A model generated the notes under the pieces. The model was not told the origin of the DNA and made no database searches. It saw only the letters and a list, made by a program, of their open reading frames with translations. 64,000 bases of DNA from Elusimicrobiales bacterium (GTDB taxonomy: Bacteria > Elusimicrobiota > Elusimicrobia > Elusimicrobiales > UBA9959): the NCBI GenBank assembly GCA_035353595.1, contig DAOPZW010000001.1, positions 1,099-65,098 on the forward strand, written 5' to 3'. The position numbers were made by a program, and so were the translations under genes. Of this stretch, positions 17,155-39,053 are shown piece by piece; the stretch's first letter is position 1, and every line of letters begins with the position of its first letter.

Positions 17155-17165
17155 GTGTAAATGGA

Positions 17166-22886: not shown

Positions 22887-24116
22887 TTATTGCGGGCCGG
22901 GTTTGCTTTTCAATTTCAGCACCGCCCGCCGCAACCAGCCGGTCTGCCCGGTGCTGGTGCTGACTTTTGCGCGTTCACCTTTCAGGCCGAGCACGGTCAC
23001 TACGGAATCTTTGAACATGAAGCCGAGGCTGTCCGTGCTTTCGGGGTCTTTGTACAATATGGCGCGGTTCGTTACTATTATAGCGCTGCTGCCGGTTTCA
23101 AAATAGTTGGCCGACTGCGGGCTGGCATATGCCGCGTCGCTGGCCTTTTTTTCCGCTATCTTATGCTTTTCGAATTTCATGACCAGCGTCAGCAGGTGGG
23201 AATTGCCCAGGTCCCCGAACGGGACATAGGCGTAATCAAAGCCGGCATCTTTATAACCTATACCGAACCCGGCGCTGAAGCCGGCGTATTTCCCGGCTTT
23301 TCCCGCGCCGGTGCGGCCGTTGTAGCCGGCGCGGAGAGCGGCGCTCAGCGCGTCAAAGAAACTCTTCCGGTATTCCAGGCCGGCACAGCCGTACGCCGGC
23401 GCGCCTCTGGCCATAATCCCGTCGAAAGCCAGCAGGAACCCCGTGCCCAGCCGGTAGCTGCTGCCCAGCCTGAACGTACTGGGCAGCCGCGCGACCTCGG
23501 ACCTGTACTTCAGCCCGGGGCCCAGATTAGAAAATGAAGCCGCCAGCGTCAGCGAGCGGCCGGTCCAGCGCACGCCGCCGTCGCCCGCATAGGACAGCGC
23601 CTCGTGATAAAGCCGCGAATAGAGCAGTTTCGCCCCGAGCCCGTATTCGAAGTCTTTATACCTGCGCGCATTGTACGCCGAGACCGCCAGGTCCATGGGT
23701 GACAGGGAATCGCCGGTCAGGTTACCGGCATTATCCACCTTCGCTATGCCTCCCGGGGACAGATACTGCGCCCCGAACCCCAGAACGCCGTGTTTGAGCG
23801 TCTCTACCGCCAGGCTGACGTGATCATAAGAGACCGACTGGAAATAGACCGCGTGCGTCAGGGAGAGATTGACCCCTTCCAATCCGGCGATCTGCGCGGG
23901 ATTATAATGGATGGCCGAGGCGTCGGTGGAGGCGGCTGCCTGCGCGTCGCCCAGCGCTACCGCCCTGGCGCCGGCCGGGAGCTCCAGGAATTGCGCGCCG
24001 GTGGTGCCTAAGGCGCCGGCTGAATAATCTCCGGCCCGGGCGGCAGGCAGCCCTGCCGTGCAGATGCCGAGCGCGAGCAGGATCGCCGGGAACTTTTGCC
24101 GCTGATCAGTGTTCAT
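22887..24116 (-). CDS. PorV/PorQ-like outer-membrane beta-barrel protein with C-terminal SH3b-like domain
   Basis: Signal peptide. N-terminal signature 'FLELPAGARAVALGDAQAAASTDASAIHYNPAQIAGL'. Alternating beta-strand pattern. C-terminus 'AILYKDPESTDSLGFMFKDSVVTVLGLKGERAKVSTSTGQTGWL' is SH3-like. Start overlaps the upstream stop (ATGA). Confidence 0.65.
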   Translation of the reverse strand: MNTDQRQKFPAILLALGICTAGLPAARAGDYSAGALGTTGAQFLELPAGARAVALGDAQAAASTDASAIHYNPAQIAGLEGVNLSLTHAVYFQSVSYDHVSLAVETLKHGVLGFGAQYLSPGGIAKVDNAGNLTGDSLSPMDLAVSAYNARRYKDFEYGLGAKLLYSRLYHEALSYAGDGGVRWTGRSLTLAASFSNLGPGLKYRSEVARLPSTFRLGSSYRLGTGFLLAFDGIMARGAPAYGCAGLEYRKSFFDALSAALRAGYNGRTGAGKAGKYAGFSAGFGIGYKDAGFDYAYVPFGDLGNSHLLTLVMKFEKHKIAEKKASDAAYASPQSANYFETGSSAIIVTNRAILYKDPESTDSLGFMFKDSVVTVLGLKGERAKVSTSTGQTGWLRRAVLKLKSKPGPQ

Positions 24117-27100
24117 CTTTCAATTACCAGCTTTTTGACCGCGCGCTTGCCGGCAGCGTTTTCAATAACGGCCATGTAAACTCCGCTGGCCGCGGCGCGG
24201 CCCGCTTCGTTCTTGCCGTCCCAGGCCTTGCAGCCGCCGTCGGACGCCGCTATGGCGAGCTTGCGGATGCGGTCGCCCTGCAGGTTGTAAATGGTTATCC
24301 GCCCTTCGAGCCCGAGGTTTTCAAAGTTAACCCCCGCGCCGCAGCCGGCGGCCGGGGAATCGTACCGGCCGCCGCTGCCGGGCGTCCACGGCACCGGGTA
24401 AACCTTCACTGAATCAAGGCCCGGCGCCGCGCTCACCAGCAGCCCGTACGTCGAAAAATGCGGTACCGCTGCGCTGAAATGATTCTGGACATAATCGGGA
24501 ACAGAGCCCGCTACCAGCTCCCAGCGGGAGAAGGCTTCATTGAGCCAGTACAGCGAAAGTTTGGTTTCCTTGATATGCGTGCCGTCCACCAGCCCGTCAT
24601 TATCAGCGTCGGGATAAGGAATTGTTATGGTTACCGGCAGGTCGAAACCGGGGATCACCGCCTGGGTGTTGGTGTCGGTTGCGGTAAACATCCTGTACAG
24701 ATTGACCGCCTGTACCGGAACCAGCCCGCCGGTGTTCTGGAAAGCCGTCCCGAGCTGGCCGCCCGACGGGTCCGGCCGCGCTATCTCCACATCCAGCTGT
24801 CCGGCATAAGCGTTGGCCGGCACTGTTACCATTGTGCCGTCATCGCTGTAAAAAACGCCCCCGCTGAGGCCGCTCAAAGAAGTGTCGATCGCGAACGTAG
24901 CGCCGGTGAGGATAAGCGTCCCGACGTTGCCGGCCGTGTCCGTGGCTGAAAGGTCAAAGGCGGCCGTGCCGTTGGGAACACCGGGATTTATAAATCCATG
25001 GCCCGTCCAGTTCTTGTTAGCCCCGGTTAAAGTGAGCGGTACCGTCAACCCGCCGGACGGGGTGTACGACAGCAGAGGCGCCTGTGGGATGGAGCCGGCG
25101 TCCTGCAGCGTAACGGCCACAGAGAAGACGCCGGTTTTTAAAGGCTGGACCGGGGTGACAACTATAACGGCGCGGGGCCCCACGGTGTCTACCTGGAAAG
25201 ACGCGTTCTTTACGCCTGTATTCGAGGCCAGGTCTTTGCCCGAAGAGGCTATGGCCGCCGTACCTTCAAAACCAGGGACCGCGGTATAAACGCCCTGCCA
25301 GCTCAGCGCCCCGGCGGCGCTAAGAACGACAGGCGTTGCCGCGCCCTGCCCGTGCTGTGTTACGCTGATAGCCGGCGGCTCTTTCAGGTCTTCGCTGGAA
25401 AGCAGCGTAATGGTGACCGGCCCCGCCTTGGCCGGATCGGGCGCGGCCGTTACGGTCAGCGTCGGCGAGGCGGTATCTACCGTGAACTTGTAGCGCGCGA
25501 TCGCGCCCGCGTTGCCCGCATCGTCCACGCCGCGCAGGTGGAACCAGTAGGTGCCGTCGGCCGTCAGGGGGCCGGTATAATTCGTAAGAACGGTTTCCGT
25601 AACGGCGTCGAGCGTATACGCCTCAGCCTGGTTGAGCGCGTAACTGTAACCGGCTAAACCGGAACCGGTTTCCGCCGCAGCGCTCCAGGTAAAAGAGGGG
25701 GTATTCAGCGAAGTGGAGGCGTTCTCGGCGTGTGTGGGAGAAGTTATGGCCGGCGTGCCCGGCGCCGTGGTATCCACCGCGAAACTGGCGGAACCGGCCA
25801 GGGGACGCGCGTGCAGGTCCAGCCCGGAAACCGAGATTGCCGCGTTGCCGTCGTACCCGGCCAGCACCGTATAGGTGCCGCTCCAGGTTATGTTGTTCTG
25901 GCTCGTCAGCGGCACAGCGGCAGCCGAGGCGCCGTTCTGCGTTACGGTCGCCGACATCGCGCTCATTTCCTTGTTGAGGGTAACGGTCAGCGTTATCGGA
26001 CCTTCTTTGGCCGGATCGCGGGAAACAGCTATCCCCTGCAGCACGGGGGCCAACAGGTCTATCTTGACCGGGCCGTAGCGCGCGGGATCTCCCCAGTTGC
26101 CGGCATTGTCCTTGGCCTTGACATAAAAATACCAGGTGCCGTCGGGTACGTTCTGGAACGTGGTCGTGTTGGCGGTAAGGTTCACCGTCATGGCCGGCGA
26201 ATAAGCGGCGGACTGGACCAGCGCCACGCTGTACCCCGCCACGCCGGAGGGGCCGTCGTCCAGGACCAGCCAGCTGAACTGCGGGTTATTGCTGACCGTG
26301 TTCCAAACGTTCGGCTGATGCGTTGCCGAAGTGGTAGGCGGCTCCGGCGGGGTGGAGGCATCCACCGTTTGGCCGTTGGAATTTACCGGTGTGGAATACA
26401 GCCCCGCCCCGTTCTGGGCTTTGATGGAAAAATAGCAGGTCGCCCCGTCATCCAGCCCCGGCCCCGAAACTGTCACGGCGCGGGCGGCGCCGTTGTCGGT
26501 CCAGGGGGCTATATCCGTAGCCCCGGGGGCGGTTCCCGCTGCGTACCAGTATTTCGCGATCCCGGAATAGTTGTCGGCAGCGGCGCTCCAATTGGCTGAA
26601 AACCGGCTGGTAGAGCTCGAATAGGTAATGTCGGCGCCTGTGCCGTCGTTGACTACGGCTACCGCCGACGGCGGCGTGGAGTCCAGCGTCTGCCCGTCGG
26701 ACATCGTCTCGGCCGAGAGCAGCCCGGCCCCGTTCTCGGCTTTTACAAAGAAGTACACATGGTCGCCTTCTGTCATGGAGTTGGTGAAATAAGTCACCGC
26801 GCGGGAGGAACCATTGTCGGTCCAGCCGAGAAGGCTCGTCGGATCATCCTGAGTGAAACCGATAGCGTACCAGTAACGCGCTATGCCGCTCTGCGCGTCG
26901 CTGGAGGCGCTCCAGTTGGCCGAGATCTGGGTTGCCGAGGTGGTATAGCTGATATCGGCGCCGGTGCCGTCGTTTACCGCGGCTATCGCGGCCGGCGCGC
27001 TGCCGTCCGCCGTCTGCCCGTTGGAATTGGCCGCCGCGGACAGCAGCCCCGCCCTGTTCTCGGCCTTGACCGAAAAATAATAGGTCTGGCCGGTAGTTAA

Positions 27101-30100
27101 TGATAAGCCCGTTTTGGTTACGCTCAGCGAGCCGCCGTTGTCGGTCCAGCCCGCCACATCGGTGCCGCCGGCCGCGGTGCCTATGGCGTACCAGTATTTC
27201 GCCACTCCGGACTGCGCGTCGGAAGAGGCGCTCCAGTTCGCCTTAAGCTGGGTCAGCGAACCGGTATAAACGATGTCGGCCCCGGCGCCGTCGTTGACCG
27301 TGGCTACCGCGGCCGGCGCGCTGGTGTCCACCAGCTGCCCGTCGGAATTGGCCGCGGCGGAAAGCAGGCCGGCGCCATTTTCGGCTTTTACCGTGAAGTA
27401 ATAAGTCGTTCCGTTGCTGAGCGAAAGCCCTGTTCTGGTCACGCTGAGCGAGCCCCCGTTATCGGTCCAGCCCGCCACGTTCGTGCCGCCGGCGGCGGTG
27501 CCTATGGCGTACCAGTATTTAACTATCCCGGATTGCGCGTCGCTGCCGGCGTTCCAGTTAGCGGACAGCTGGGTCAGGGACCCGGTATAATTTATGTCCG
27601 CGCCGGTGCCATCTCTTGAGGTGCTTGGCGCCGCGGGCGCGGTCGCGTCCACCAGCTGGCCGTTCGAATTGGCGGCCGCGGACAGCAGCCCCGCCCCGTT
27701 CTCGGCCTTGACCGAGAAGTAGTAGGTCTGCCCGTCGCTGAGGGACAAACCGGCGGCTGTAACGCTGCGGGCGGAACCGTTATCCGTCCAGCCCCGTATA
27801 TCGGCGCCGCCGGCCGTGCTGCCTATGGCGTACCAGTATTTTACTATGCCGGATTGGGCGTCGGACGAGGTTCCCCAGTTGGCCGCCAGCTGGGTCAGCG
27901 AACCGGTGTAGGCGCTATCGGCGCCGGTGCCGTCGTTCACCGCGGCTACCGCGGCCGGCGCGCTGGCGTCCACCGTCTGGCCGTTGGAATTGGCGGCGGC
28001 GGATTGCAGCCCTACGCCGTTCTCGGCTTTGACCGTAAAGTAATAGGTCTGCCCCGTAGTCAGCGAGAGGCCTGTCCGGGTTACGCTGAGCGCGGCCCCG
28101 TTGTCGGTCCAGCCCGCGATATTGGCCGCACCCGCGCTGGTGCCGATGGCGTACCAGTATTTGGCTATGCCGCTTTCGGCGTCGGTGGCGGCGCTCCAGT
28201 TGGCCGCCAGCTGGGTCAGCGAACCGGTATAGGTTATGTCGGCGCCCGCGCCGTCGCTTACCGCGGGTACGGCGCCGGGCGGAGTGCTATCGGGAGGCGT
28301 ATCGTCCCTGATCAAGCGGACAGCCATCCCGTATTTGTTGCCGGTGACATAATCCCCCAAAAAGGTGTAGCCGTAAAACAGCCCCTGATAGTAGGACTCC
28401 ACATCAGTATTTAAGGTGGAAGTCCAGAACAGAGAGCTTGCGCTCATGGCGCCGAAGACCCCGCTGATCCCATACCGCAAGCCTGAAGCATAAGCGGTAA
28501 AGCCGCTGCTGTTGTTGGCCGCCTGATTGTTGCCAGGAGCTCCGGCTGTTGCGGAAGCGGCCCAAGAACTGTTGCCGGCAATTGATTTGGCTATTTTATT
28601 CCCGCTGGTAGTGGCATCGTAATTATAACCATTGGCTATAAGCCAGTCACTGGCCCTGTTCCATTCCTGTCTGCTGGGCACATGCCAGCCCGAAGGGGCT
28701 ATGTTGCGGTTATCGGCGGCCGCATACCAGTTATACAGCAGTCCGTAAGTCGGTACATTGCCGGAGTCGTTGTCGTAGCTGCAATATGCGGCCGAGCCGG
28801 CATTCGCCCAGGCGGTATCGTCCGTGATATTGCTTATGCTGTCGCCGTTCCTGAACCGGGTGGTTCTCAGGTTTTCCACCGTCCAGGTGTTGGTCCCTAT
28901 GATCACCGTGTGGTACACGTTCCCGTCAATGTCCGTAACCGTGCTGGATTGGGCGGCCGCATTTACCGTCTGGCCGTTCGAATTTGCCGGGGTAGAATAT
29001 GTGCCCGCTCCGTTTTCGGCCTTCACCGAAAAGTATACGGTGCTGCCATTGGGGACCAGCAGGCCGGTTTTGGTCACGCTGAGCGCCGTGCCATTATCCG
29101 TCCAATCCACAATATTCGTGCCGCCGGCAACAGTGCCTATGGCGTACCAGTACCTTAAGATACCGGATTCAGCGTCGGAGGAAACGGTCCAGTTGGCTGA
29201 AAGTTCGGTCCGGGAATCGGTAGTAGCTATGTCGGCGCCCAGGCCGTCGTTTACGGTCGCTACGGTCGCGGGCGCGGTGGTGTCCACGCTCTGCCCGTTG
29301 GAATTGGCCGGGGTGGAATTAATGCCCGCGCCGTTCTCGGCTTTAACTGAAAAATAATACATCTGGCCATAGGCAAGGGACAAGTCGGTTTTGATCGCGT
29401 TGAGGGATAAGCCAACGCTGGTCCAGTTCGTTATGTCGGTGCCGCCGGGGGTGGTGCCTATGGCGTACCGGTATTTAACTATGCCGCTTTCCTGGTCGGT
29501 GGAGGCGGTCCAGTTGGCGGAAAGCCGGGTAAGCGAATCGCCGTAATCCCTGTCGGAACCGAGGCTGTCGCTGACAACCGGCTGTGTGGGCGGGGTGGTA
29601 TCGGGCGTGGCGCCGGATTGGCATGAGCAATACGCGCTGCCTGTAAGCCCGCGGCCATTTTTTACCTGCAGGTAGACGGTATCGCCATAGCCTAAAGTCC
29701 AATCCCCTACGGTTTTTGAGAAGGAGCTCCCGCTGGAGGTGAGCTGCCAGGCGGTATCGGTAAAAGAGGCGTTGTTCGAGACCCGGTAAGCCAGCGGATT
29801 GCTGTCGGTGTCCGCCGCGCTGAGCGACAGGGTTGCCGGCCCTGCCGGACAGGCAGCGCCGCAACTGCCGTTGATCTTGATATCGGCCGCGGGCGGAGTT
29901 GTGTCGGGAAGATAATCAAAAATGCGATTAACAAATATTTCGGTATTAACCGGACCGAAAAGATCTGCTGATTCGTTCATTTTTGAGATATAGGTGGGGC
30001 GATAAACCCCCAGCGGTTTGTAAGCCGCCCCTTCGAACAGGCCTACTTCGGCGGAGCCGGCAGGTCCTATGGTAGGCAGCGGGGTAGCGGGAAACACCCA

Positions 30101-30769
30101 TTCTCCCCACTTAAGCGTAGAACGGTCCGTGTTGATGGTTACATTCCGTTGGGAGGGTTCACCGCCTGAATAGTAGCCTGTAGATTCCACATACTCATCG
30201 CTCAGTAAGCCAAAACAGTGCCCGGCCTCATGCGTAAGACAGTCCGGGCCGGATGTTATGGAACACGACCCAATTCCGCCATACCAGGCCGCGCCGCCAT
30301 AGGCGACGCTGTTTACAATAACAAGTACGATGTCGCGGCCCTGTACGAATCCGGCCACGGAGCCGGCCGCGGCATGCGCCAGATTGATATTGGAGGATAA
30401 TGAACGACAGCTGCTGCTGTTGCCGGCTACGATCGAGAATGCGCTGCCAAGGGCATTGTCCACTACATTGCCGGAGCAGTTTTCATTGCTCGCGCCGGAT
30501 TGGTTGCTGATAACGTCGACGCGGTAGACATTGAAGAAATCCTTGTAATCGCCCAGTTCCTGTGAAAAAAAAGTGTTATAGGCGGTCTGGGCGTCAGTCG
30601 CAAAATTGGAGATTTGCGCGCTGGTGTACCCGTCGCTTAAAAAGATCAGGTTTATTTTGTTCGCCGCCGTGCCGCTGTAAATGGTGGCGGTATTCCAGGC
30701 TGTGGCAGGGGCGGCCAGGAACATTAAAAGTCCCGCCATGGTCCCCGCCAGGCCGGGGCGCGGTCTCAT
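24113..30769 (-). CDS. 2218-aa secreted multidomain protein: M64-like metallopeptidase, FN3-like repeats, FISUMP domain, Ig-like domains, T9SS-type C-terminal domain
   Basis: 'LTHEAGHCFGLLSDEY' is the M64-type HExxH (30218..30232). Eight ~105-aa repeats built around 'KYWYAIGT..GG.....WTDNG...SVT..GLSL..G.TYYF.VKAENGAGL'. 'DIDGNVYHTVIIGTNTWTVENL...YGLLYNWYAA...APSGWHVPS' is a Fibrobacter-type FISUMP domain. C-terminus 'VYPVPW...ITIYNLQGDRIRKL...WDGKNEAGRAAASGVYM'. Confidence 0.8.
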   Translation of the reverse strand: MRPRPGLAGTMAGLLMFLAAPATAWNTATIYSGTAANKINLIFLSDGYTSAQISNFATDAQTAYNTFFSQELGDYKDFFNVYRVDVISNQSGASNENCSGNVVDNALGSAFSIVAGNSSSCRSLSSNINLAHAAAGSVAGFVQGRDIVLVIVNSVAYGGAAWYGGIGSCSITSGPDCLTHEAGHCFGLLSDEYVESTGYYSGGEPSQRNVTINTDRSTLKWGEWVFPATPLPTIGPAGSAEVGLFEGAAYKPLGVYRPTYISKMNESADLFGPVNTEIFVNRIFDYLPDTTPPAADIKINGSCGAACPAGPATLSLSAADTDSNPLAYRVSNNASFTDTAWQLTSSGSSFSKTVGDWTLGYGDTVYLQVKNGRGLTGSAYCSCQSGATPDTTPPTQPVVSDSLGSDRDYGDSLTRLSANWTASTDQESGIVKYRYAIGTTPGGTDITNWTSVGLSLNAIKTDLSLAYGQMYYFSVKAENGAGINSTPANSNGQSVDTTAPATVATVNDGLGADIATTDSRTELSANWTVSSDAESGILRYWYAIGTVAGGTNIVDWTDNGTALSVTKTGLLVPNGSTVYFSVKAENGAGTYSTPANSNGQTVNAAAQSSTVTDIDGNVYHTVIIGTNTWTVENLRTTRFRNGDSISNITDDTAWANAGSAAYCSYDNDSGNVPTYGLLYNWYAAADNRNIAPSGWHVPSRQEWNRASDWLIANGYNYDATTSGNKIAKSIAGNSSWAASATAGAPGNNQAANNSSGFTAYASGLRYGISGVFGAMSASSLFWTSTLNTDVESYYQGLFYGYTFLGDYVTGNKYGMAVRLIRDDTPPDSTPPGAVPAVSDGAGADITYTGSLTQLAANWSAATDAESGIAKYWYAIGTSAGAANIAGWTDNGAALSVTRTGLSLTTGQTYYFTVKAENGVGLQSAAANSNGQTVDASAPAAVAAVNDGTGADSAYTGSLTQLAANWGTSSDAQSGIVKYWYAIGSTAGGADIRGWTDNGSARSVTAAGLSLSDGQTYYFSVKAENGAGLLSAAANSNGQLVDATAPAAPSTSRDGTGADINYTGSLTQLSANWNAGSDAQSGIVKYWYAIGTAAGGTNVAGWTDNGGSLSVTRTGLSLSNGTTYYFTVKAENGAGLLSAAANSDGQLVDTSAPAAVATVNDGAGADIVYTGSLTQLKANWSASSDAQSGVAKYWYAIGTAAGGTDVAGWTDNGGSLSVTKTGLSLTTGQTYYFSVKAENRAGLLSAAANSNGQTADGSAPAAIAAVNDGTGADISYTTSATQISANWSASSDAQSGIARYWYAIGFTQDDPTSLLGWTDNGSSRAVTYFTNSMTEGDHVYFFVKAENGAGLLSAETMSDGQTLDSTPPSAVAVVNDGTGADITYSSSTSRFSANWSAAADNYSGIAKYWYAAGTAPGATDIAPWTDNGAARAVTVSGPGLDDGATCYFSIKAQNGAGLYSTPVNSNGQTVDASTPPEPPTTSATHQPNVWNTVSNNPQFSWLVLDDGPSGVAGYSVALVQSAAYSPAMTVNLTANTTTFQNVPDGTWYFYVKAKDNAGNWGDPARYGPVKIDLLAPVLQGIAVSRDPAKEGPITLTVTLNKEMSAMSATVTQNGASAAAVPLTSQNNITWSGTYTVLAGYDGNAAISVSGLDLHARPLAGSASFAVDTTAPGTPAITSPTHAENASTSLNTPSFTWSAAAETGSGLAGYSYALNQAEAYTLDAVTETVLTNYTGPLTADGTYWFHLRGVDDAGNAGAIARYKFTVDTASPTLTVTAAPDPAKAGPVTITLLSSEDLKEPPAISVTQHGQGAATPVVLSAAGALSWQGVYTAVPGFEGTAAIASSGKDLASNTGVKNASFQVDTVGPRAVIVVTPVQPLKTGVFSVAVTLQDAGSIPQAPLLSYTPSGGLTVPLTLTGANKNWTGHGFINPGVPNGTAAFDLSATDTAGNVGTLILTGATFAIDTSLSGLSGGVFYSDDGTMVTVPANAYAGQLDVEIARPDPSGGQLGTAFQNTGGLVPVQAVNLYRMFTATDTNTQAVIPGFDLPVTITIPYPDADNDGLVDGTHIKETKLSLYWLNEAFSRWELVAGSVPDYVQNHFSAAVPHFSTYGLLVSAAPGLDSVKVYPVPWTPGSGGRYDSPAAGCGAGVNFENLGLEGRITIYNLQGDRIRKLAIAASDGGCKAWDGKNEAGRAAASGVYMAVIENAAGKRAVKKLVIER
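26360..28294 (-). repeat. Six tandem ~320-bp coding repeats (FN3-like modules R3-R8); two more at ~28961..29608
   Basis: Repeat boundaries derived from residue counts 826..1470 of the 2218-aa protein. The copies are clearly diverged at nucleotide level, not identical. Confidence 0.75.
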
Positions 30770-31698
30770 TGGCTTTCCCCTGTAACGGTGCCGAGTTCCA
30801 GCACCGACTTTAGGTCAAGGTCGGCCGCCGCGGGGGCGGAGGACGCTTTTACGGTTTTAAAGTTCTTCCTCTGTTGGCCGCGGCCGCCTGCCGGGGCCTT
30901 GCGATGCGAAACCCGCAAGGTCTTGATCCTGGTGTCGTAGGGCAGGGTCAGGGTCATTTCAGCCTTGGCCGCCTTGTAGCTGCCGCCCTTCATTACCTTG
31001 CGCCCCGGCGACCGCCCTCCCGCCTGCTGCGGTTCCGGGTCTTCAAAATAATCGTAGAATCCCTGCGTGGGATCATCCAGGCTCTGGGTCGCCAGGGTGT
31101 TTCCGGCGGCGTCCACCGCTTCAACGTAGCGGGAGCCTTCCGAGGCAGGCTGGCGGTAGAACATCGGCCTGGGTTTATTTATTATCTTTTTTGAAACCAC
31201 CTTGTAGCTGTTCCCGTCGGTTCCCAGTACGACCTGCAGGTATTTATCGCCGGGGGGAGGCTGCGGGGCGGGCATGGCTTCCAGGTTGTTGTTCCAGGTC
31301 TGCGCCGCCATTACGCCAGCGGGGCCGTAGGCCGCGCGCAGGCTCTCCGGCTCGGTTATCTCTTCCCTGTAAAATACGGCGCCGCAGCGGGTGGCCAATT
31401 CCGCCTCCAGGGCTGCCGGCACATGCCCGTAGAAAATGCCTGGCCCCAAAGCGCCATCCAGCCGCCCCCCATTGTCCGCTACGTAGCGGCGGCATTCCGC
31501 GGCAAGGCCGGCCGCGGCCCGGCTGCTGAGCAAAACCAGCGCATCCGCGGCTGCCGGCGCGGCAAGGCAGCGCTGCGCGGCCAGCAGCGGCAACAGCGCG
31601 AACAGCTGCAGCAGGATGGATTTATGTAATGGCCGCTGGGTTGCTGTTGATGGCATATGATAAGTATAAAGCAGGCTGGTAGACATGTCAACACCCAC
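30766..31698 (-). CDS. Secreted hypothetical protein, first gene of the M64 operon
   Basis: Hydrophobic signal 'ILLQLFALLPLLAAQRCLAAPAA'. Stop overlaps the M64 start (ATGA). Exact start uncertain. Confidence 0.5.
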   Translation of the reverse strand: MGVDMSTSLLYTYHMPSTATQRPLHKSILLQLFALLPLLAAQRCLAAPAAADALVLLSSRAAAGLAAECRRYVADNGGRLDGALGPGIFYGHVPAALEAELATRCGAVFYREEITEPESLRAAYGPAGVMAAQTWNNNLEAMPAPQPPPGDKYLQVVLGTDGNSYKVVSKKIINKPRPMFYRQPASEGSRYVEAVDAAGNTLATQSLDDPTQGFYDYFEDPEPQQAGGRSPGRKVMKGGSYKAAKAEMTLTLPYDTRIKTLRVSHRKAPAGGRGQQRKNFKTVKASSAPAAADLDLKSVLELGTVTGESQ

Positions 31699-31851: not shown

Positions 31852-31870
31852 AGTGAAGTGTCACTTCACT
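31852..31870. promoter_or_regulatory. Perfect palindrome AGTGAAGTG-T-CACTTCACT (candidate operator)
   Basis: 9-bp arms in the divergent intergenic region between the M64 operon and the HTH regulator. A TATAAT lies at 31909..31914. Confidence 0.4.
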
Positions 31871-31929
31871 GCTATATTTTACTTGTGAAGCGCGCTGCCG
31901 ATATTCGTTATAATATGCGGTAAAGGAAC

Positions 31930-32796: not shown

Positions 32797-32871
32797 GCGG
32801 CGTTGCTTTATTTTTATTTACAGCCTGAATATGTTTCAATTGTACAGGACAAAACGGAGACAGGAGCAACT

Positions 32872-34425: not shown

Positions 34426-34513
34426 GCTGCGGCGCTGACGTTCTCCCTGATAACTGGACCACGGGAAGCTGGAAAAATTGCTGGATTATAGGCCTCCAAG
34501 AGCGGAGGAGAAC

Positions 34514-34777
34514 GTGAATAAGCGGTTCACGGAAGAACAGGTAGCGTTCGCGCTGAAGCAGCATGAGACCGGGGTCCCCATAGCTGACATATGCCGTAAA
34601 ATGTGCGTCAGCGACGCCTCATTTTATCTTTGAAAGAAGAAATACGCGGGGATGGGCATAACCGAGCTGCGCAAATTGAAGGCCTTGGAGGAGGAAAACC
34701 GGCAGCTTAAGAAGCTGGTGGCGGATCTCAGCCTGGACAAGCAGATGCTGCAGGATGTGCTCTCAAAAAAATTCTGA
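34514..34777 (+). pseudogene. IS3 orfA (HTH transposase N-terminal part) with an in-frame TGA
   Basis: VNKRFTEEQVAFALKQHETGVPIADICRKMCVSDASFYL*KKKYAGMGITELRKLKALEEENRQLKKLVADLSLDKQMLQDVLSKKF. The TGA at 34631 sits where IS3 OrfA proteins have the conserved Trp (TGG). Confidence 0.7.
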
Positions 34778-35633
34778 AGCTGCGCGTAAGCGCACCGCCG
34801 CCCGATCCCTCCAGGATACCTACAGGGTCAAAATAAGGCGGGCGTGCAGGCTTGTGAAGGCCGAGCGCTCCGGATATTACTATAAGCCGCATGGCAGGGA
34901 CAATAGGGCCCTGCGCTTGCGGATACTGGACATAGCCAATGCCGGGCCCGGATTCGGATATCTGCGGATACACATCCTTCTTCGACGGGAGGGCTGGCTG
35001 GTAGATAAAAAGTGCGTTTACAGGATCTACACGGAAGAAATGCTTCAGGTCCGCACGAAGCAGCGAAGAAAACGCATAAGCCAGCCCCGGGTTAGATTGC
35101 CATTGCCGGGGGCAGTAAACGAGCACCGGAGCATGGATTTTATACATGATCCCCTGGAAGACGGCCGAAAGTTCCGGATCCTGACCGTGGTAGACCAGTT
35201 TAGCCGGGAATGCCCGATACTGGCGGCGGAGCATTCGTTAAGCTGGGAAAAAGTCGTAGAATATCTTGAAGGGTTGCGACGCAGGCGCGGTCTGCCCAAG
35301 GCGATAACCGTGGACAACGGGACGGAGTTCATTTCAAAAGCTCTTGATGCCTGGGCGTATCGCAACGGCATACACCTGGATTACATAAGGCCCGGGAAAC
35401 CGGTTGAAAACGCCTGTATCGAGAGTTTTAACGGCCGGCTTCGCGACGAGTGTTCGAACGCGAACGTGTTCGCGGCATTAGAGTCGGCTTCGAGTTTGCT
35501 TGAGGCATGGCGGCAGGATTACAATAATTTTAGACCGCACACTTCTGCCGACGGCATGCCGCCGGCCGAGTATGCGGCGAAGTGCAGGGAAGGCCTAAAA
35601 ACAGCTGCGGTTTTCCAACGCTCTGTGGTCTAG
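34755..35633 (+). CDS. IS3 orfB (DDE transposase catalytic part)
   Basis: 'RRACRLV', 'GYLRIHILLRREGW', 'DFIHD...RILTVVDQFSRE', 'ITVDNGTEF', 'RPGKPVENACIESFNGRLRDE'. Lies in the +1 frame relative to orfA, not the canonical -1 frame. Confidence 0.85.
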   Translation: MCSQKNSEAARKRTAARSLQDTYRVKIRRACRLVKAERSGYYYKPHGRDNRALRLRILDIANAGPGFGYLRIHILLRREGWLVDKKCVYRIYTEEMLQVRTKQRRKRISQPRVRLPLPGAVNEHRSMDFIHDPLEDGRKFRILTVVDQFSRECPILAAEHSLSWEKVVEYLEGLRRRRGLPKAITVDNGTEFISKALDAWAYRNGIHLDYIRPGKPVENACIESFNGRLRDECSNANVFAALESASSLLEAWRQDYNNFRPHTSADGMPPAEYAAKCREGLKTAAVFQRSVV

Positions 35634-35684
35634 TTTTCGGAGGAAGGTCAGGTTAACCCGAATCAGATCTACGCATTAATTTTG

Positions 35685-37628
35685 ATGACCGACTTGGATC
35701 TTAGAATTGCAACTCGCCACTCTTTGTTTTGGGTCCTTTTTGTACTCCTATCAACTCCAAGGTTACTGCTTGCCGTTACGGCAAGCCCGAGAGGTGTCGA
35801 AGTTACGCAGCCGGATGGGACTAAGATCGCCATCTATATGCGCGGAGATGAGTTTTATAGTTGGAATGAAGACGCAAAGGGCTACACGATCGTAAAAGAC
35901 ACAAGTACCGGCGAATGGTTATATGCAAAAAAAGACCTCAAGGGTGCTTTGTCCACAACTGAGTTTAAGGTCGGAGTGAAGGACCCCGACACCTTAAATT
36001 TAAAAAAACATTTCACGGATGGTTCAAAGGTTTCGCGGGCGCGGAATTTTCACCGTGCACGGAAAACGGCTTCGGCGTTTTCAGTTGCCGCTAGTCGTGT
36101 TAGCGCTGCTCCAGCCAGAGTTCCGGTATTAACCGGGACAATGAAGAACCTGGTTATTCTTGCACGTTTTTCCGACATTGCTCCGACCTATTCACAGGCT
36201 CAGCTAGACAGCTTGTTTAATCAAGTCGGCTATAGCTTTGACGGCGCCGTCGGTTCGGTTAAAGACTATTATCACGAGGTTTCATACAACCTCCTGACCA
36301 TACAATCTACGGTTAGCCAGTGGGTCACTTTGCCGCATGGTTATGCGTACTATGGGGCAAATGATGTGAACGGCAACGACGTCGGAGCACGGGAAATGGT
36401 CCTTGATGCCATAAACGCTCTTGATGCTGCCGGTTTTGACTTCAGTACCGTTGATGGAAATAACGATGGAGAAGTTGACGGACTTACCATTATCCATTCT
36501 GGCCGCGGTGAAGAAGCAAATTCCGGAATCAATAATGATTACATCTGGTCCCATCAATATGGACTTTCTGCCCCTGTTTATAAAGATGGCAAAAAGTTGC
36601 AAATGTACCATACCGAACCGGAAGTTCGTGGCACTGATGGATGGCCTGCGACATGGGGAATCTCCCGTATAGGGGTAATTGCCCACGAAACCGGCCATTT
36701 CTTAGGCTTACCTGACCTTTATGATTATGGCGGAGACAGTCACGGCGCCGGGCAATTTTGCCTTATGGCTGAAGGAAACTGGAACGGTGGAACCAATTGC
36801 GGCGTATCTCAAGGCGATGGGTCAACCCCTGCCCATATGAGCGCTTGGCCCAAGGCGATACTTGGTTGGGCTACGCCGACACAGATTACCAATGCCGGCA
36901 GTTATAACCTGCCGAGGATAGAGGATAACCGCAGCGCCATGTATTGGATGCAGGCAGCCGCATTCTTATCTTCCGAATACTTCCTGATGGAAAACAGGCA
37001 AAGTGTCGGCTTTGACTATTGTTTGCCGGGTGTAACCAACGGCATTTTGATATGGCATGTTGACCACACCATGTGGAATAACGGGGATAACGACGACCAG
37101 ACTCACTACCTTGTGGACCTTGAAGAGGCAAGTGGGATTCAACATCTTGCCAGCAACACAAGTTCGGGGGATGGTTCTGATTACTTTCGACCAGGGAATA
37201 ATGTAAGTTTCGGGGATACAACTTTTCCTAATAGCAAAAGCTATCTGAACTATAATCTCGGGCTTCTTATTCGCAACATCTCCGCGAGTGGCGATCCGAT
37301 GACTTTTAGTGTTACGCAATCTGCCGCTTCCGAATTGTCCATGGGGAAACTTAAAGCCTATCCCAATCCTTGCTACTTTGACAAGAACCCGAACATAACC
37401 ATAGCCGGCATCCCGCCGGACGCAAAGGACGTAAAGGTTTACATTTACAACGCCGCGGGCAAATTGGTCCGCACCCTGGAAAGCGGCAGCGAGATAGACG
37501 AGGACAACGTTGCTGTATGGGATGGCCGCGACGAGAACGGCCTTAAATCCGCGAGCGGCATCTGTTTTTATCTGGCTAAGTTCTCCAACTACGACAGGGC
37601 GACCGGCAAGTTCTATGTTTTTTGGTAA
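35685..37628 (+). CDS. M6-family (immune inhibitor A-like) metalloprotease with T9SS-type C-terminal domain
   Basis: 'GVIAHETGHFLGLPDLYDY' HExxH. 'M6 domain' context ('MKNLVILARFSD', 'SVKDYYHEVSYN'). C-terminus 'KAYPNPCYF...VKVYIYNAAGKLVRTL...WDGRDENGLKSASGICFY'. Confidence 0.78.
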   Translation: MTDLDLRIATRHSLFWVLFVLLSTPRLLLAVTASPRGVEVTQPDGTKIAIYMRGDEFYSWNEDAKGYTIVKDTSTGEWLYAKKDLKGALSTTEFKVGVKDPDTLNLKKHFTDGSKVSRARNFHRARKTASAFSVAASRVSAAPARVPVLTGTMKNLVILARFSDIAPTYSQAQLDSLFNQVGYSFDGAVGSVKDYYHEVSYNLLTIQSTVSQWVTLPHGYAYYGANDVNGNDVGAREMVLDAINALDAAGFDFSTVDGNNDGEVDGLTIIHSGRGEEANSGINNDYIWSHQYGLSAPVYKDGKKLQMYHTEPEVRGTDGWPATWGISRIGVIAHETGHFLGLPDLYDYGGDSHGAGQFCLMAEGNWNGGTNCGVSQGDGSTPAHMSAWPKAILGWATPTQITNAGSYNLPRIEDNRSAMYWMQAAAFLSSEYFLMENRQSVGFDYCLPGVTNGILIWHVDHTMWNNGDNDDQTHYLVDLEEASGIQHLASNTSSGDGSDYFRPGNNVSFGDTTFPNSKSYLNYNLGLLIRNISASGDPMTFSVTQSAASELSMGKLKAYPNPCYFDKNPNITIAGIPPDAKDVKVYIYNAAGKLVRTLESGSEIDEDNVAVWDGRDENGLKSASGICFYLAKFSNYDRATGKFYVFW

Positions 37629-37634
37629 GAGCAA

Positions 37635-39053
37635 ATGAAACGGGCCAGCGCACTAATTCTGATTGCGGCCGTGTCGGCGATCCCGGCAAAGCCCCTTGCC
37701 GCCCAGACAGCCTCCAATGCTGCCTCGTTCCTTGAAATAGACTGTGGAGCCAGGGGCGAGGCCTTGGGCGGAGCGTTCACGGCCATAGCCGACGACGCCT
37801 CTTCCGTTTTTTACAACCCGGCCGGACCGGGCCTGGTCAACAGGTCGGAAGTGATGGTTTCGCACTCCCAATGGCTTGAAGGCTTATGGAATGAACAGGT
37901 CGCCTATGTTCATCCTGTAAACGCCAAGTTGACCGTGTTTGCGGGGATAACCGCGCTGGTCAGTCCCCCGCTCGACAAATTCGACGAGACCGGGGCGCAG
38001 AATGGCACATTCAACGCGTTTGACGGCGCGCTGAGCGTGGGCGCCGCGACCGGGTTTGGCGCCAACGGTTATATCGGCATGAACGTGAAAACCATTTATT
38101 CCGAGGCCGACCTCCATAAGGCTTTCGCCTACGCGGGAGATGCCGGAGTCATACAGAATATCGGCGCATTGCGGCTCGGCTTCTCTATACAGAATATCGG
38201 CACGCAGATGAAACTCTATAAAGAAAAGTTCAACCTGCCCCGCATCTCCCGCGGCGGCGCCGCACTTAAGCTGTTAAACAAGCACTGGCTGTCGGCCGAA
38301 GTAATTAGGTTGAACGATGGCAAGGCATTATGGGGCGGAGGGTTGGAAAGCGAATTTACGGTTACTTCGGAATATACCGGGGTATTGCGGTTCGGCTACA
38401 AACAGGGCCGCTCCAAAAATACCGGCTCGGGAATTTCAGCAGGCCTCGGGCTGAAGGCCGGGGATATTTCCGGGGACTACGCGTTTTCCCCGTTCGGAGA
38501 ACTGGGCGCCACGCACCGGCTTACGCTGAACTTAAAATTTGGCGAAAGCCGTGACAGTTCCTCGCGTCCTGCGCGGAGCAAGCCGCCGGTAAAAGCGGAT
38601 ATCCCGGCGCCGGCACCTGATCCCGAACCGACCGCGACGGAGCCGGCAACCGCCACGAACGCGGCGCTTGAAGCGGCGGACAGGTATTATTCCCAAAAGG
38701 ATTATTCCAATGCGGCGGCGCAGTATGCCGCGGCGTCGAAGATGCTGCCGGAAGACGATACGCTCCGCATACGTGTGTTTGAACGGCAGGGACAGATATC
38801 ACTGAAGGGCAAGAACATCCCCAAAGCGAGGGGCTTTTATCTGGCTGCCATACAGACCGCAAAAATACTTGCCGTGACAGATGTGAATGTTGTCAATTCC
38901 TATCTTGGTTTGGCATACTGTTTCGATAAAAGCGCGAACATTCCGGCGGCGATAAAGAACTACGAAAAAGCCCTGGAGCTTTCCACGAACGAAAAGACCA
39001 AGGCGGGGATCCGGAAAACACTGCAGCGGCTTAAATCCAATCCTAAGCAGTAG
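37635..39053 (+). CDS. PorV/PorQ-like outer-membrane beta-barrel protein with C-terminal TPR region
   Basis: Signal peptide. 'FLEIDCGARGEALGGAFTAIADDASSVFYNPAGPGL' is the same signature as the 22887..24116 product. Pro-rich linker, then TPR-like 'YYSQKDYSNAAAQYAAA...'. Starts 7 nt after the M6 stop. Confidence 0.65.
   Translation: MKRASALILIAAVSAIPAKPLAAQTASNAASFLEIDCGARGEALGGAFTAIADDASSVFYNPAGPGLVNRSEVMVSHSQWLEGLWNEQVAYVHPVNAKLTVFAGITALVSPPLDKFDETGAQNGTFNAFDGALSVGAATGFGANGYIGMNVKTIYSEADLHKAFAYAGDAGVIQNIGALRLGFSIQNIGTQMKLYKEKFNLPRISRGGAALKLLNKHWLSAEVIRLNDGKALWGGGLESEFTVTSEYTGVLRFGYKQGRSKNTGSGISAGLGLKAGDISGDYAFSPFGELGATHRLTLNLKFGESRDSSSRPARSKPPVKADIPAPAPDPEPTATEPATATNAALEAADRYYSQKDYSNAAAQYAAASKMLPEDDTLRIRVFERQGQISLKGKNIPKARGFYLAAIQTAKILAVTDVNVVNSYLGLAYCFDKSANIPAAIKNYEKALELSTNEKTKAGIRKTLQRLKSNPKQ

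What the first reader, a model, noticed from the sequence alone, without database searches (positions are those of the whole stretch)
22887..39053. Two CTD-bearing metalloproteases, each with its own adjacent PorV-like barrel carrying an extra domain
The M64 giant protein (24113..30769) and the M6 protease (35685..37628) end in similar ~85-aa domains. The shared pattern is YP.P...I.IYN..G..+R.L....WDG..E.G...ASG+, which matches the T9SS/FlgD-Ig type C-terminal sorting domain.

Each is immediately followed by a beta-barrel protein with the PorV/PorQ-type signature FLE+..GAR..ALG.A..A..DAS...YNPA. One is joined by an ATGA overlap and the other by a 6-nt gap. One barrel is fused to an SH3b-like domain and the other to TPR repeats.

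In Bacteroidota a single PorV shuttles many cargos. Cargo-dedicated PorV-like partners with accessory domains would be a different arrangement.
Basis: partly seen in the sequence, partly recalled or inferred. Interest (0 to 1): 0.6.

Follow-up and report, generated by a model that had tools for sequence, protein, structure and literature searches.

The report
Cargo-specific PorQ-like anchor barrels, Elusimicrobia
In this Elusimicrobia genome piece, two secreted proteases each end in a small tail domain like that of the type IX secretion protein PorZ. Each is followed by its own outer-membrane barrel like PorZ's partner PorQ. This two-gene unit recurs across the phylum with many different enzymes, so it looks like a modular way of mounting enzymes on the cell surface.

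Summary
An M64 metalloprotease giant (24113..30769, -) and an M6 metalloprotease (35682..37628, +) end in homologous ~95-aa C-terminal domains (CTDs). Each is followed at once by a PorV/PorQ-family barrel, one by an ATGA overlap and one by a 6-nt gap. Both barrels pass NCBIfam NF033709, and their models match PorV best in the PDB. One barrel carries a periplasmic SH3b-like tail and the other a TPR tail.

The contig is from Elusimicrobiales, outside the FCB group where type IX secretion (T9SS) is known.

The pairing is conserved:
- In 331 kb of Elusimicrobia DNA, 21 of 21 CTD ORFs abut a barrel.
- In a CTD-seeded metagenome scan, 31 of 31 assessable loci do too.
- CTD type tracks barrel clade (r = 0.90), while the cargo is swapped (M64, M6, S8, C10, C25, M23, lectins, NHL).

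The CTD profile's best solved match is the uncleaved CTD of PorZ (5M11, E = 3e-13), which binds PorQ. The barrels score higher on the PorQ model than on the PorV model.

Best reading: a cognate CTD/barrel surface-anchoring module, like PorZ–PorQ and SprB–SprF, with PorE-like wall tethers fused to the barrel. Whether a T9SS translocon exists in these genomes could not be tested. I rate it a new variant of a known kind.

The parts
30766..31698 (-). Unknown 310-aa exported-looking protein. Its stop overlaps the M64 start by ATGA, so it is probably co-translated with the module. It is not conserved in related loci.
   Evidence: overlap; no family; no homolog in other loci
24113..30769 (-). Cargo 1, a 2218-aa surface protein. 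It has a signal peptide, a Peptidase_M64 domain (aa 32-233, HEAGH at aa 180), fn3-like repeats, a FISUMP domain (aa 622-821), Ig-like domains and a CTD.
24116..24412 (-). CTD type 1, the last ~99 aa of the M64 giant, ending KKLVIER. It is PorZ/PorU-like and carries two conserved Cys.
   Evidence: conserved at 53-63% identity in cargo of other loci
23166..24005 (-). Barrel 1, the PorV/PorQ-family beta-barrel domain (aa 38-317 of the 409-aa protein 22887..24116), with an N-terminal FLE..GAR..YNPA hatch.
   Evidence: NF033709 131.8 bits; PorQ 103.7 > PorV 52; AF2 pLDDT 82.6; top PDB hit PorV 8gl6_F, E = 1e-13
22902..23099 (-). SH3b-like all-beta tail of barrel 1 (aa 340-405), after a disordered linker (aa 318-336). 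It is predicted to be periplasmic and to bind peptidoglycan.
   Evidence: model; orthologous tails pass Pfam SH3_3; own tail only E = 0.08
34478..35633 (+). IS3-family insertion sequence (orfA in two pieces, then orfB), 48 nt upstream of M6. It is not part of the module but marks its boundary.
35682..37628 (+). Cargo 2, a 648-aa M6 (InhA-like) metalloprotease. It has a signal peptide, a catalytic domain (aa 158-459, HETGH at aa 335) and a CTD.
   Evidence: ortholog in L084 is 72.5% identical
37344..37625 (+). CTD type 2, the last ~94 aa of M6, ending GKFYVFW. It is FlgD_ig/PorZ-like.
   Evidence: the same CTD type sits on S8 and C10 proteases next to barrel2 orthologs
37716..38549 (+). Barrel 2, the PorV/PorQ-family beta-barrel domain (aa 28-305 of the 472-aa protein 37635..39053).
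   Evidence: NF033709 124.9 bits; PorQ 106.2 > PorV 30.4; AF2 pLDDT 84.8; top PDB hit PorV 8gl6_F, E = 6e-15
38646..39038 (+). TPR-like seven-helix tail of barrel 2 (aa 338-468), after a Pro-rich disordered linker (aa 309-337). It is predicted to be periplasmic.
   Evidence: closely related tails sit on barrels of the other clade (L001, L006; E ~1e-38)
39087..41318 (+). AsmA/YhdP-like 743-aa protein downstream of barrel 2. It is syntenic in two orthologous loci, and a functional link is uncertain.
   Evidence: Pfam AsmA in L084 and L085

Best explanation
Each pair is a two-gene surface-display module. The cargo is exported by Sec through its N-terminal signal peptide and crosses the outer membrane. 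Its C-terminal Ig-like domain is of the PorZ/PorU type. That domain is captured by the extracellular face of the PorQ/PorV-like 14-stranded barrel encoded by the next, translationally coupled gene, and it stays bound there uncleaved.

The barrel is specific for its own CTD type. Type 1 (ending KKLAIER) goes with the barrel1 clade. Type 2 (ending VYVFW) goes with the barrel2 clade.

The barrel's C-terminal extension lies in the periplasm and fixes the complex. SH3b or OmpA tails would tie it to peptidoglycan, and TPR tails to a protein partner. This does in one polypeptide what PorP plus PorE do in Porphyromonas.

The result is proteases and other hydrolases or adhesins held at the cell surface in a 1:1 ratio with their anchor.

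Shown here:
- the homologies;
- the predicted folds;
- obligate adjacency;
- co-variation of CTD and barrel;
- swapping of cargo and of tails.

Inferred, not shown:
- physical CTD-barrel binding;
- retention of the CTD;
- periplasmic location and ligands of the tails.

Unknown: which channel takes the cargo across the outer membrane. It could be a T9SS SprA/Sov-like translocon encoded elsewhere, or something else.
For: Family and fold:
- Both barrels pass NF033709. They score about twice as high on the PorQ equivalog as on the PorV equivalog.
- AF2 models with pLDDT 82.6 and 84.8 hit PorV from the substrate-bound T9SS translocon first, then FadL.

CTD identity:
- For 6 of 9 CTDs tested, including both window CTDs, the best NCBIfam match is the last ~90 positions of the PorZ model. 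PorZ and PorU C-ends appear in the hit lists of all nine. For the other three, a FlgD-family model ranks first.
- Three of the nine CTDs (L012, L019, L085 cargo) pass TIGR04183.
- The CTD profile matches PorZ 5M11 residues 668-758 end to end at E = 3.3e-13 and PorU 6ZA2 at 1e-3. Cleaved type A CTDs (RgpB, RemA) reach only E ~0.7.
- PorZ and PorU are the T9SS proteins whose CTDs are retained and bound to PorQ and PorV (PMC10202324; bioRxiv 10.1101/2020.05.13.094771).

Pairing:
- In the window both junctions are tight, an ATGA overlap and a 6-nt gap.
- In 331 kb of Elusimicrobia loci, 21 of 21 C-terminal CTD ORFs abut a barrel and there are no orphan CTDs. In 887 kb of FCB loci, only 18 of 58 do.
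- In an independent CTD-seeded metagenome scan, 31 of 31 assessable loci have the barrel domain starting 18-30 nt before the CTD ORF's end.

Specificity and modularity:
- Barrel identity against CTD identity gives r = 0.90 over 40 pairs, with 0 of 2000 Mantel permutations reaching it.
- Barrel1-clade cargo includes M64, a lipase-like protein, C10, C25, an M6-like protein, M23, Laminin_G and fn3-only proteins. NHL, SBBP and GH2-like cargo sit beside more distant barrels with other CTD types.
- Barrel2-clade cargo is M6, S8 or C10, all with the same VYVFW-ending CTD.

Tails:
- SH3b, TPR, OmpA or no tail occur on related barrels.
- The same TPR tail occurs on both barrel clades.

Precedent: PorP-PorE-type B CTD complexes and SprF-SprB (PMC9143113).
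Against: No binding, localisation or processing data exist, so everything rests on sequence and context.

Both window CTDs fall just below the TIGR04183 cutoff. The barrels fail the PorV, PorQ and PorV2 equivalog cutoffs. They are therefore family members, not orthologs.

Genes that are adjacent and inherited together will show correlated divergence without any physical interaction, so r = 0.90 alone does not prove binding.

The loci of the first census were chosen through the barrel, which is an ascertainment bias. The CTD-seeded scan covers CTD type 1 only.

No T9SS core gene lies among the window ORFs tested. No paper I could find reports T9SS in Elusimicrobia. The outer-membrane crossing step therefore has no identified machine.

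Treponema UPF0164/FadL-like barrels with TPR tails are interpreted as nutrient importers (PMC8407342).
Confidence: 0.6

Rival explanations
1. The barrels are dedicated secretion adaptors rather than anchors. As proposed for SprF with SprB, each barrel docks on a SprA/Sov-type T9SS translocon encoded elsewhere in the genome and pulls its own cargo out by the CTD. The cargo is then cleaved or released, so the pair is needed for export rather than for permanent display.
For: The homology and pairing evidence is the same as for the best explanation. PorV and PorP-like barrels are proposed to collect cargo at the same site on Sov/SprA (PMC9143113). One cargo, from L010, is a C25 gingipain-like peptidase that could process CTDs.
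Against: The CTDs resemble the retained CTDs of PorZ and PorU far more than the cleaved type A CTDs. Wall-tethering tails (SH3b, OmpA) on a barrel fit a fixed anchor better than a shuttle that moves. The L010 C25 protein does not match the PorU sortase model. No T9SS core gene was seen among the window ORFs tested.
Confidence: 0.2
2. The module is a self-contained secretion unit that needs no T9SS. The barrel, perhaps together with BAM or the AsmA/TamB-like protein, helps its own cargo across the outer membrane and then holds it, like a split autotransporter or two-partner system.
For: The gene order, cargo C-terminus followed by barrel, mirrors passenger-barrel order in autotransporters. Coupling is tight and stoichiometry is 1:1. 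The phylum lies outside the known T9SS range. An AsmA-like gene follows barrel2 in three loci.
Against: The models show a plugged FadL/PorV-type barrel with an N-terminal hatch. Known PorV-type barrels bind cargo but do not conduct it. There are no POTRA domains and no Pfam Autotransporter or TPS hits. AsmA synteny is limited to close relatives of barrel2. Absence of T9SS from these genomes is not shown.
Confidence: 0.1
3. The barrels are FadL-like importers. The neighbouring hydrolase digests polymers outside the cell and the barrel takes up the hydrophobic or peptide products. The shared C-terminal domain is a generic Ig-like module with no role in pairing.
For: The fold is FadL-like, with the hatch NPA motif. 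Pfam UPF0164 passes and Toluene_X gives weak hits. The Treponema relatives with TPR tails are read as importers (PMC8407342). A POT peptide symporter lies in the window.
Against: Cargo is not only proteases. It includes lectin-like, NHL, fn3-only and TIG/Big proteins with no product to import. What is conserved next to the barrel is the CTD, not the enzyme, and CTD type tracks barrel clade. The CTD is specifically PorZ/PorU-like. The barrels match PorV and PorQ better than FadL.
Confidence: 0.07

Closest known systems
PorZ-PorQ and PorU-PorV pairs of the T9SS attachment complex (Porphyromonas gingivalis)
   Same: A surface protein keeps its C-terminal Ig-like domain and is held on the cell by a 14-stranded PorV-family barrel. 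The CTDs here align end to end with the PorZ CTD (5M11) and with the PorU CTD. The barrels score best on the PorQ model. porU and porV are also neighbouring genes in Bacteroidota (own knowledge).
   Different: - Here the principle is used for many different cargo enzymes, not for two housekeeping T9SS parts.
- Cargo and barrel are always adjacent and translationally coupled.
- The barrels carry fused periplasmic tails.
- The host is Elusimicrobiota.
- The barrels fail the PorQ and PorV equivalog cutoffs.
Type B CTD proteins with cognate PorP/SprF-like barrels, and PorE (Flavobacterium johnsoniae SprB-SprF; P. gingivalis PG1035-PorP-PorE)
   Same: Cargo-dedicated FadL-type barrels are encoded next to their cargo. 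The uncleaved CTD is bound to the barrel. The complex is tied to peptidoglycan through a TPR- and OmpA-containing periplasmic partner (PMC9143113).
   Different: - The CTDs here are not type B (TIGR04131 12-15 bits against a cutoff of 35).
- The barrels match PorV/PorQ models, and no PorP/SprF model appeared in their hit lists.
- The PorE-like functions (TPR, peptidoglycan binding) are fused to the barrel instead of being a separate lipoprotein.
PorV (LptO), the shared shuttle for type A CTD cargo
   Same: It is the best structural match for both barrels (8gl6_F, 6h3i_F). The HMM superfamily and the N-terminal hatch motif are the same.
   Different: One PorV serves many cargo proteins whose CTDs are then cut by PorU. 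Here there is one barrel per cargo, and no orphan CTD proteins were seen in 331 kb.
Treponema pallidum FadL-like OMPs of Pfam UPF0164 (TP0548, TP0859, TP0865) with a C-terminal helical TPR extension
   Same: Both window barrels pass Pfam UPF0164. The architecture of a 14-stranded barrel, a short linker and a periplasmic TPR-like helical domain is the same (PMC8407342).
   Different: The treponemal proteins are read as nutrient importers, and no CTD-bearing partner gene is described for them.
FCB-phylum pairs of a ~1080-1200-aa CTD protein with a PorV-family barrel (found here in Ignavibacteria, Calditrichota, Marinimicrobia, Gemmatimonadetes and Bacteroidota MAGs)
   Same: The gene order and the CTD-plus-barrel adjacency are the same.
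   Different: The upstream protein is one conserved family of unknown function rather than variable cargo. Most CTD proteins in those genomes are unpaired (40 of 58). The barrels have no tails.

Membership tests
PorV/PorQ family (NCBIfam NF033709) | Whole-protein HMM score at or above the curated cutoff (90 bits) | tested here: met
   Barrel1 scores 131.8 bits and barrel2 124.9 bits.
PorV/PorQ family (NCBIfam NF033709) | FadL-type ~14-stranded outer-membrane barrel with an N-terminal hatch; closest solved structure is PorV | tested here: met
   AF2 models have pLDDT 82.6 and 84.8. The Foldseek PDB top hit is 8gl6_F (E = 1e-13 and 6e-15), and 6h3i_F ranks 2nd and 3rd. I did not count strands rigorously.
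PorV ortholog (NF033710) / PorQ ortholog (NF033711) / PorV2 (NF052325) | Equivalog HMM score at or above the cutoff (250 / 220 / 325 bits) | tested here: not met
   PorV 52 and 30 bits; PorQ 104 and 106 bits; PorV2 44 and 44 bits. The barrels are family members closest to PorQ, but not orthologs.
T9SS (as a system) | Core genes in the same genome: SprA/Sov, PorK/L/M/N, PorT, PorW and the PorU sortase | not testable with these tools
   Only 64 kb of the genome is available. No core gene lies among the window ORFs tested, which run to ~55 kb. No literature links Elusimicrobia to T9SS.
T9SS type A sorting domain (TIGR04183 / Por_Secre_tail) | HMM score at or above 23 bits, at the extreme C-terminus | tested here: inconclusive
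   Window CTD1 scores 20.8 bits and CTD2 22.8 bits, both just under the cutoff. Related CTDs pass: L012 30.6, L019 24.8, L085 25.7. All lie at the very C-terminus.
PorZ/PorU-type retained CTD | Sequence homology to the CTD of PorZ or PorU over its full length | tested here: met
   The profile of 12 CTDs hits 5M11_A residues 668-758 at E = 3.3e-13 and 6ZA2 residues 1055-1152 at E = 1e-3. NF052228 positions ~666-757 are the best NCBIfam hit for 6 of 9 CTDs, including both window CTDs, and appear in the hit lists of all nine.
PorZ/PorU-type retained CTD | The CTD is not cleaved and binds its barrel | not testable with these tools
   This needs proteomics or pull-downs.
T9SS type B sorting domain with PorP/SprF partner (TIGR04131) | Type B CTD HMM at or above 35 bits | tested here: not met
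   Scores are 12.6 and 15.5 bits for the two CTDs that hit at all.
FlgD Ig-like domain (Pfam PF13860) | HMM score at or above 27 bits | tested here: met
   The M6 CTD scores 34.5 bits. The M64 CTD is not detected by Pfam, but hits the FlgD NCBIfam model at E = 5e-5.
FadL/TodX transporters (Pfam PF03349 Toluene_X) | HMM score at or above 29.7 bits | tested here: not met
   Scores are 18.8 and 16.4 bits. The fold is related, but PorV ranks above FadL.
UPF0164 (Pfam PF03687, Treponema FadL-like OMPs) | HMM score at or above 21.4 bits | tested here: met
   Scores are 26.1 and 39.3 bits, covering the N-terminal part only.
Type V secretion (autotransporter / two-partner) | 12-stranded Autotransporter domain, or a 16-stranded TpsB barrel with POTRA domains | tested here: not met
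   No such Pfam or NCBIfam hits on barrels or cargo. The barrel fold is of the PorV/FadL type.
Peptidase M64 and Peptidase M6 | Family HMM above the cutoff, plus an intact HExxH zinc motif | tested here: met
   PF09471 scores 106 bits, with HEAGH. TIGR03296 scores 194.6 bits and PF05547 90.5 bits, with HETGH.

The most novel reading that the evidence does not exclude
Elusimicrobia, and Goldbacteria too, lack the T9SS translocon and motor. On this reading, the cargo-CTD plus PorQ-like barrel operon is a free-standing two-gene system that both delivers and anchors large enzymes on the outer membrane. It would be either the evolutionary precursor of the T9SS attachment complex or a reduced remnant of it working through another channel. 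Either way it would be a previously unrecognised surface-display or secretion route in a phylum outside the FCB group.
Probability: 0.25. Interest if true: 0.85.

Novelty: new variant of a known kind. Interest (0 to 1): 0.62.

Why it matters
It extends the recognition pair at the heart of type IX secretion, an Ig-like CTD held by a PorV-family barrel, to a phylum where this system has not been described.

Nature has made the pair modular here. There is one barrel per cargo, CTD types are matched to barrel clades, passengers are swapped among at least six peptidase families plus lectins and adhesins, and the wall-tethering domains are fused to the barrel.

This gives three things:
- A natural set of cognate and non-cognate CTD/barrel pairs for working out what sets binding specificity. 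That question is open for PorV, PorQ and SprF.
- Natural fusions that support the idea that PorP-PorE-type complexes tie surface cargo to peptidoglycan.
- A simple rule for predicting the surface proteome of uncultured Elusimicrobia: any gene directly upstream of a PorQ-like barrel.

If the genomes turn out to lack SprA and PorKLMN, it would also bear on how the T9SS arose.

Tried and rejected
Narrower alignments A2 and A4 worked.
- The third homologous-protein search, with the 104-aa CTD1, returned a single fragment and was wasted.
- Literature searches for Elusimicrobia with T9SS or type IX secretion gave only irrelevant co-mentions. They give no published evidence either way.
- I asked whether the L010 cargo, a C25 peptidase with CTD, is a PorU sortase. 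It has no match to NF033707 beyond the CTD, so I treat it as cargo.
- I asked whether the 310-aa upstream protein is a third conserved component. It has no homolog in any related locus.
- I asked whether the AsmA-like gene is part of the module. It is syntenic only in close barrel2 relatives (L084, L085) and absent from L086 and the P0073 context.
- My first adjacency script reported 'no partner' for L008, L013 and ten metagenome loci. These were artefacts of stop-to-stop ORFs running far upstream in GC-rich DNA. HMM envelope coordinates place every barrel start 18-30 nt before the CTD ORF's end.
- I assumed at first that the FCB hits were porU-porV pairs. The upstream proteins do not match PorU. 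They are either SusC/TonB-receptor-like or an unknown CTD protein family.
- I did not attempt a fused CTD-barrel structure prediction. The tool returns no interface measure and accepts only window sequences.

Full report
**What is in the window.**

- Minus strand: a 2218-aa protein (24113..30769) is followed by a 409-aa protein (22887..24116). The two overlap by ATGA ('aagATGAac').
- Plus strand: a 648-aa protein (35682..37628) is followed by a 472-aa protein (37635..39053). Its stop is TAA, and a 6-nt gap follows.

The large protein has a signal peptide, a Peptidase_M64 domain (106 bits, HEAGH at aa 180), fn3-like repeats, a FISUMP domain and Ig-like domains. The 648-aa protein is an M6/InhA-type metalloprotease (TIGR03296 194.6 bits, HETGH at aa 335).

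The two C-terminal ~95-aa domains are homologous (E = 2e-7 pairwise). The two downstream proteins are 32% identical over 290 aa (E = 5e-28). No other copy of either element occurs in the 64 kb.

A 310-aa unknown protein (30766..31698) is also coupled by ATGA to the start of the M64 gene. It has no relatives in other loci.

**The barrels.**

Both pass the NCBIfam PorV/PorQ subfamily model NF033709, at 131.8 and 124.9 bits against a cutoff of 90. Both fail the equivalog models. PorQ scores 104 and 106 bits against a cutoff of 220, and PorV scores 52 and 30 bits against a cutoff of 250. They are therefore closest to PorQ without being orthologs. Both also pass Pfam UPF0164.

AlphaFold2 models built from alignments have pLDDT 82.6 and 84.8. 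Each shows a plugged beta-barrel, a disordered linker and a well-folded tail:
- barrel1 has an all-beta ~60-aa tail domain;
- barrel2 has seven helices.

Foldseek against the PDB ranks PorV from the substrate-bound T9SS translocon (8gl6_F) first for both models. The second PorV chain, 6h3i_F, ranks second for barrel1 and third for barrel2, with a FadL mutant (2r89_A) between them. FadL and TodX otherwise follow.

The TPR tail is supported by several Pfam TPR models. The SH3b call for barrel1 rests on orthologous tails that pass Pfam SH3_3 (32 and 44.5 bits). Barrel1's own tail reaches only E = 0.08.

Related barrels carry SH3b, TPR or OmpA tails, or none. The barrel2-type TPR tail is also found on barrels of the barrel1 clade (E ~1e-38), so tails are shuffled. 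A FadL-type barrel with an even strand count puts its C-terminus in the periplasm. SH3b and OmpA domains bind peptidoglycan. The tails are therefore most likely periplasmic tethers (inference; the treponemal TPR tails were assigned the same way, PMC8407342).

**The CTDs.**

I tested nine CTDs from this window and related loci against NCBIfam. For six of them, including both window CTDs, the best match is the last ~90 positions of the PorZ model. For the other three, a FlgD-family model ranks first. PorZ and PorU C-ends appear in the hit lists of all nine.

TIGR04183 (type A sorting domain) scores 20.8 and 22.8 bits for the two window CTDs, against a cutoff of 23. Three related CTDs pass it. 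The type B model is far below its threshold.

A profile of 12 CTDs searched against all PDB sequences gave these matches:
- PorZ (5M11) residues 668-758, its exact C-terminus, at E = 3.3e-13;
- PorU (6ZA2) C-terminus at 1e-3;
- FlgD at 1e-3 to 1e-4;
- the cleaved CTDs of RgpB and RemA only at E ~0.7.

PorZ and PorU are the two T9SS proteins whose CTDs are not removed and which sit on PorQ and PorV. A review has suggested that 'cognate PorV-like barrels' protect such CTDs (PMC10202324; bioRxiv 10.1101/2020.05.13.094771).

**Organism.**

Both barrels are identical to NCBI proteins named 'PorV/PorQ family protein [Elusimicrobiales bacterium]'. Elusimicrobiota lie outside the FCB group. I found no paper connecting them with T9SS. 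An early survey found T9SS only in Bacteroidetes (PMC4793230), but its criteria were strict. No core T9SS gene lies among the window ORFs tested, which run to about 55 kb. That is a small part of a genome.

**Is the pairing conserved?**

Yes, by three lines of evidence.

1. Contexts of barrel homologs. Every assessable Elusimicrobia locus except L016 has a CTD-bearing protein ending at the barrel's start. In L016 the upstream ORF is a 416-aa protein with no CTD. Examples:
   - a 2067-aa CARDB/lipase-like protein (L001);
   - a 4984-aa NHL giant (L004);
   - an M6 protease with the same M6-barrel-AsmA synteny as the window (L084; barrel 75% identical);
   - a subtilisin (L085);
   - a C10 cysteine protease (L086);
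   - another S8 protease (L120);
   - in a Goldbacteria MAG, a TIG/Big protein (L119).

2. A genome scan seeded with the barrel gave 79 loci, which I censused with my own HMMs.
   - In 331 kb of Elusimicrobia DNA there are 21 C-terminal CTD ORFs, and all 21 abut a barrel. Of 23 barrels, 21 are paired. One of the unpaired barrels lies at a contig end and the other (L016) is a genuine exception.
   - In 887 kb from FCB phyla, only 18 of 58 CTD ORFs are paired.

3. A metagenome scan seeded with CTD type 1, and so independent of the barrel, gave 32 loci. In 31 of them the barrel domain begins 18-30 nt before the end of the CTD ORF. In the last, the contig ends 16 nt after the CTD. A few of these loci duplicate earlier ones.

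**Specificity and modularity.**

Over 40 pairs, barrel identity and CTD identity correlate at r = 0.90, with 0 of 2000 Mantel permutations reaching that value.

The barrel1 clade always goes with a CTD ending KKLAIER or KKLVIER. That CTD has two invariant cysteines and is more conserved (53-63% identity) than the barrels (40-50%).

The barrel2 clade always goes with a CTD ending GKVYVFW or GKFYVFW.

The passengers differ: M64, lipase-like, C10, C25 with propeptide, M6-like, M23 with SH3, Laminin_G and fn3-only in the barrel1 clade. M6, S8 and C10 occur in the barrel2 clade. SBBP, GH2-like and NHL cargo sit beside more distant barrels with other CTD types.

Co-inheritance of neighbouring genes explains part of the correlation. 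It does not explain why the enzyme part is replaced while the CTD-barrel junction stays intact.

**Mechanism proposed.**

The cargo is exported by Sec and crosses the outer membrane. Its PorZ-type CTD is then bound, uncleaved, by the dedicated PorQ-like barrel made from the coupled downstream gene. The barrel's periplasmic tail fixes the complex to the wall (SH3b, OmpA) or to a partner (TPR).

This parallels PorZ-PorQ, PorU-PorV and SprB-SprF. The fused tails parallel PorP-PorE, where a TPR/OmpA lipoprotein links the barrel to peptidoglycan (PMC9143113).

The homologies, predicted folds, adjacency, co-variation and shuffling are shown. Binding, CTD retention and tail topology are inferred. The outer-membrane channel is unknown.

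Rival readings:
- a secretion-adaptor role at a T9SS translocon encoded elsewhere;
- a self-contained split-autotransporter-like unit;
- FadL-like nutrient import.

Nutrient import fits poorly. The conserved partner is the CTD rather than the enzyme, and many cargo proteins are not hydrolases.

**Comparison and novelty.**

The barrels are members of the PorV/PorQ family. They are not PorV, PorQ or PorV2 orthologs. The CTDs belong with the PorZ/PorU branch of T9SS CTDs and are borderline for the type A model. Cognate CTD/barrel pairs are known in Bacteroidota, so the principle is not new.

What I could not find described:
- the obligate one-cargo-one-barrel operon used as a general, shuffled display module;
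- the fusion of wall-tethering or TPR domains to the barrel;
- its occurrence in Elusimicrobiota and Goldbacteria.

I rate it a new variant of a known kind, with interest 0.62. If whole-genome scans show that these bacteria lack SprA and PorKLMN, the module would be a free-standing surface-display route and would be considerably more novel (probability about 0.25).

Noticed in passing
window 30766..31698 (-): A 310-aa protein with a signal-peptide-like N-terminus and no family match. Its stop overlaps the M64 start by ATGA, so three genes (unknown, M64, barrel1) are translationally coupled. It has no homolog in any related locus.
   Followed up: partly
window 34478..35633 (+) and 35682..41318: An IS3-family element (orfA in two pieces, then orfB) lies 48 nt upstream of M6. 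The M6-barrel2-AsmA block has GC 0.49 / 0.565 / 0.535, against 0.61-0.64 for its neighbours. The orthologous block in L084 sits in a 0.51-GC contig without the IS. This suggests lateral acquisition of the whole block.
   Followed up: partly
L022, L024, L046 and about 30 other Zixibacteria/Ignavibacteria loci, around 6500..10900: In FCB phyla a PorV-family barrel lies directly downstream of a ~1120-aa SusC/TonB-receptor-like protein. A ~1000-aa CTD protein and an M6-CTD protease lie about 8.7 kb further on. It is a conserved cluster of unknown role.
   Followed up: partly
L043 6625..11005; L045 (two copies); L066; L074; L075; L079-L081: A conserved ~1080-1200-aa CTD-bearing protein with no Pfam or NCBIfam match sits directly upstream of a PorV-family barrel. 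It occurs in Ignavibacteria, Calditrichota, Marinimicrobia, Gemmatimonadetes and Bacteroidota MAGs. It is not PorU by HMM.
   Followed up: partly
L119 1544..7263 (Candidatus Goldiibacteriota MAG): A 1486-aa TIG/Big protein overlaps a barrel+TPR gene by 4 nt. Its CTD looks more like a classical type A CTD. The paired arrangement therefore extends to a second non-FCB phylum.
   Followed up: partly
window 24116..24412 (-) and alignment A4: Type 1 CTDs have two invariant cysteines (GCG.G and GCKAWDG), which suggests a conserved disulfide. Type 2 CTDs lack them.
   Followed up: no
window 38646..39038 (+); L001 and L006 barrel tails: The TPR tail of barrel2 is closely related (E ~1e-38) to tails attached to barrels of the other clade. 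Tails have therefore been exchanged between barrel clades independently of CTD type.
   Followed up: partly
window 15052..18053 (-): A YydG-like radical SAM enzyme, a transglutaminase-core/TPR protein and a 214-aa unknown protein lie in a row. This is possibly a peptide-modification cassette.
   Followed up: no
window 41381..45646 (-) and 53959..55377 (+): A MacB-like permease, an ABC ATPase, a membrane-fusion protein and a TolC-like channel form one operon downstream of the AsmA-like gene. A POT-family peptide symporter lies 8 kb further on, which fits a proteolytic lifestyle.
   Followed up: no
window 24113..30769 (-), aa 476-1450: The M64 giant contains at least seven ~107-aa fn3-like repeats, marked by the motif K[AN]ENGAG, interrupted by a FISUMP domain.
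   Followed up: no
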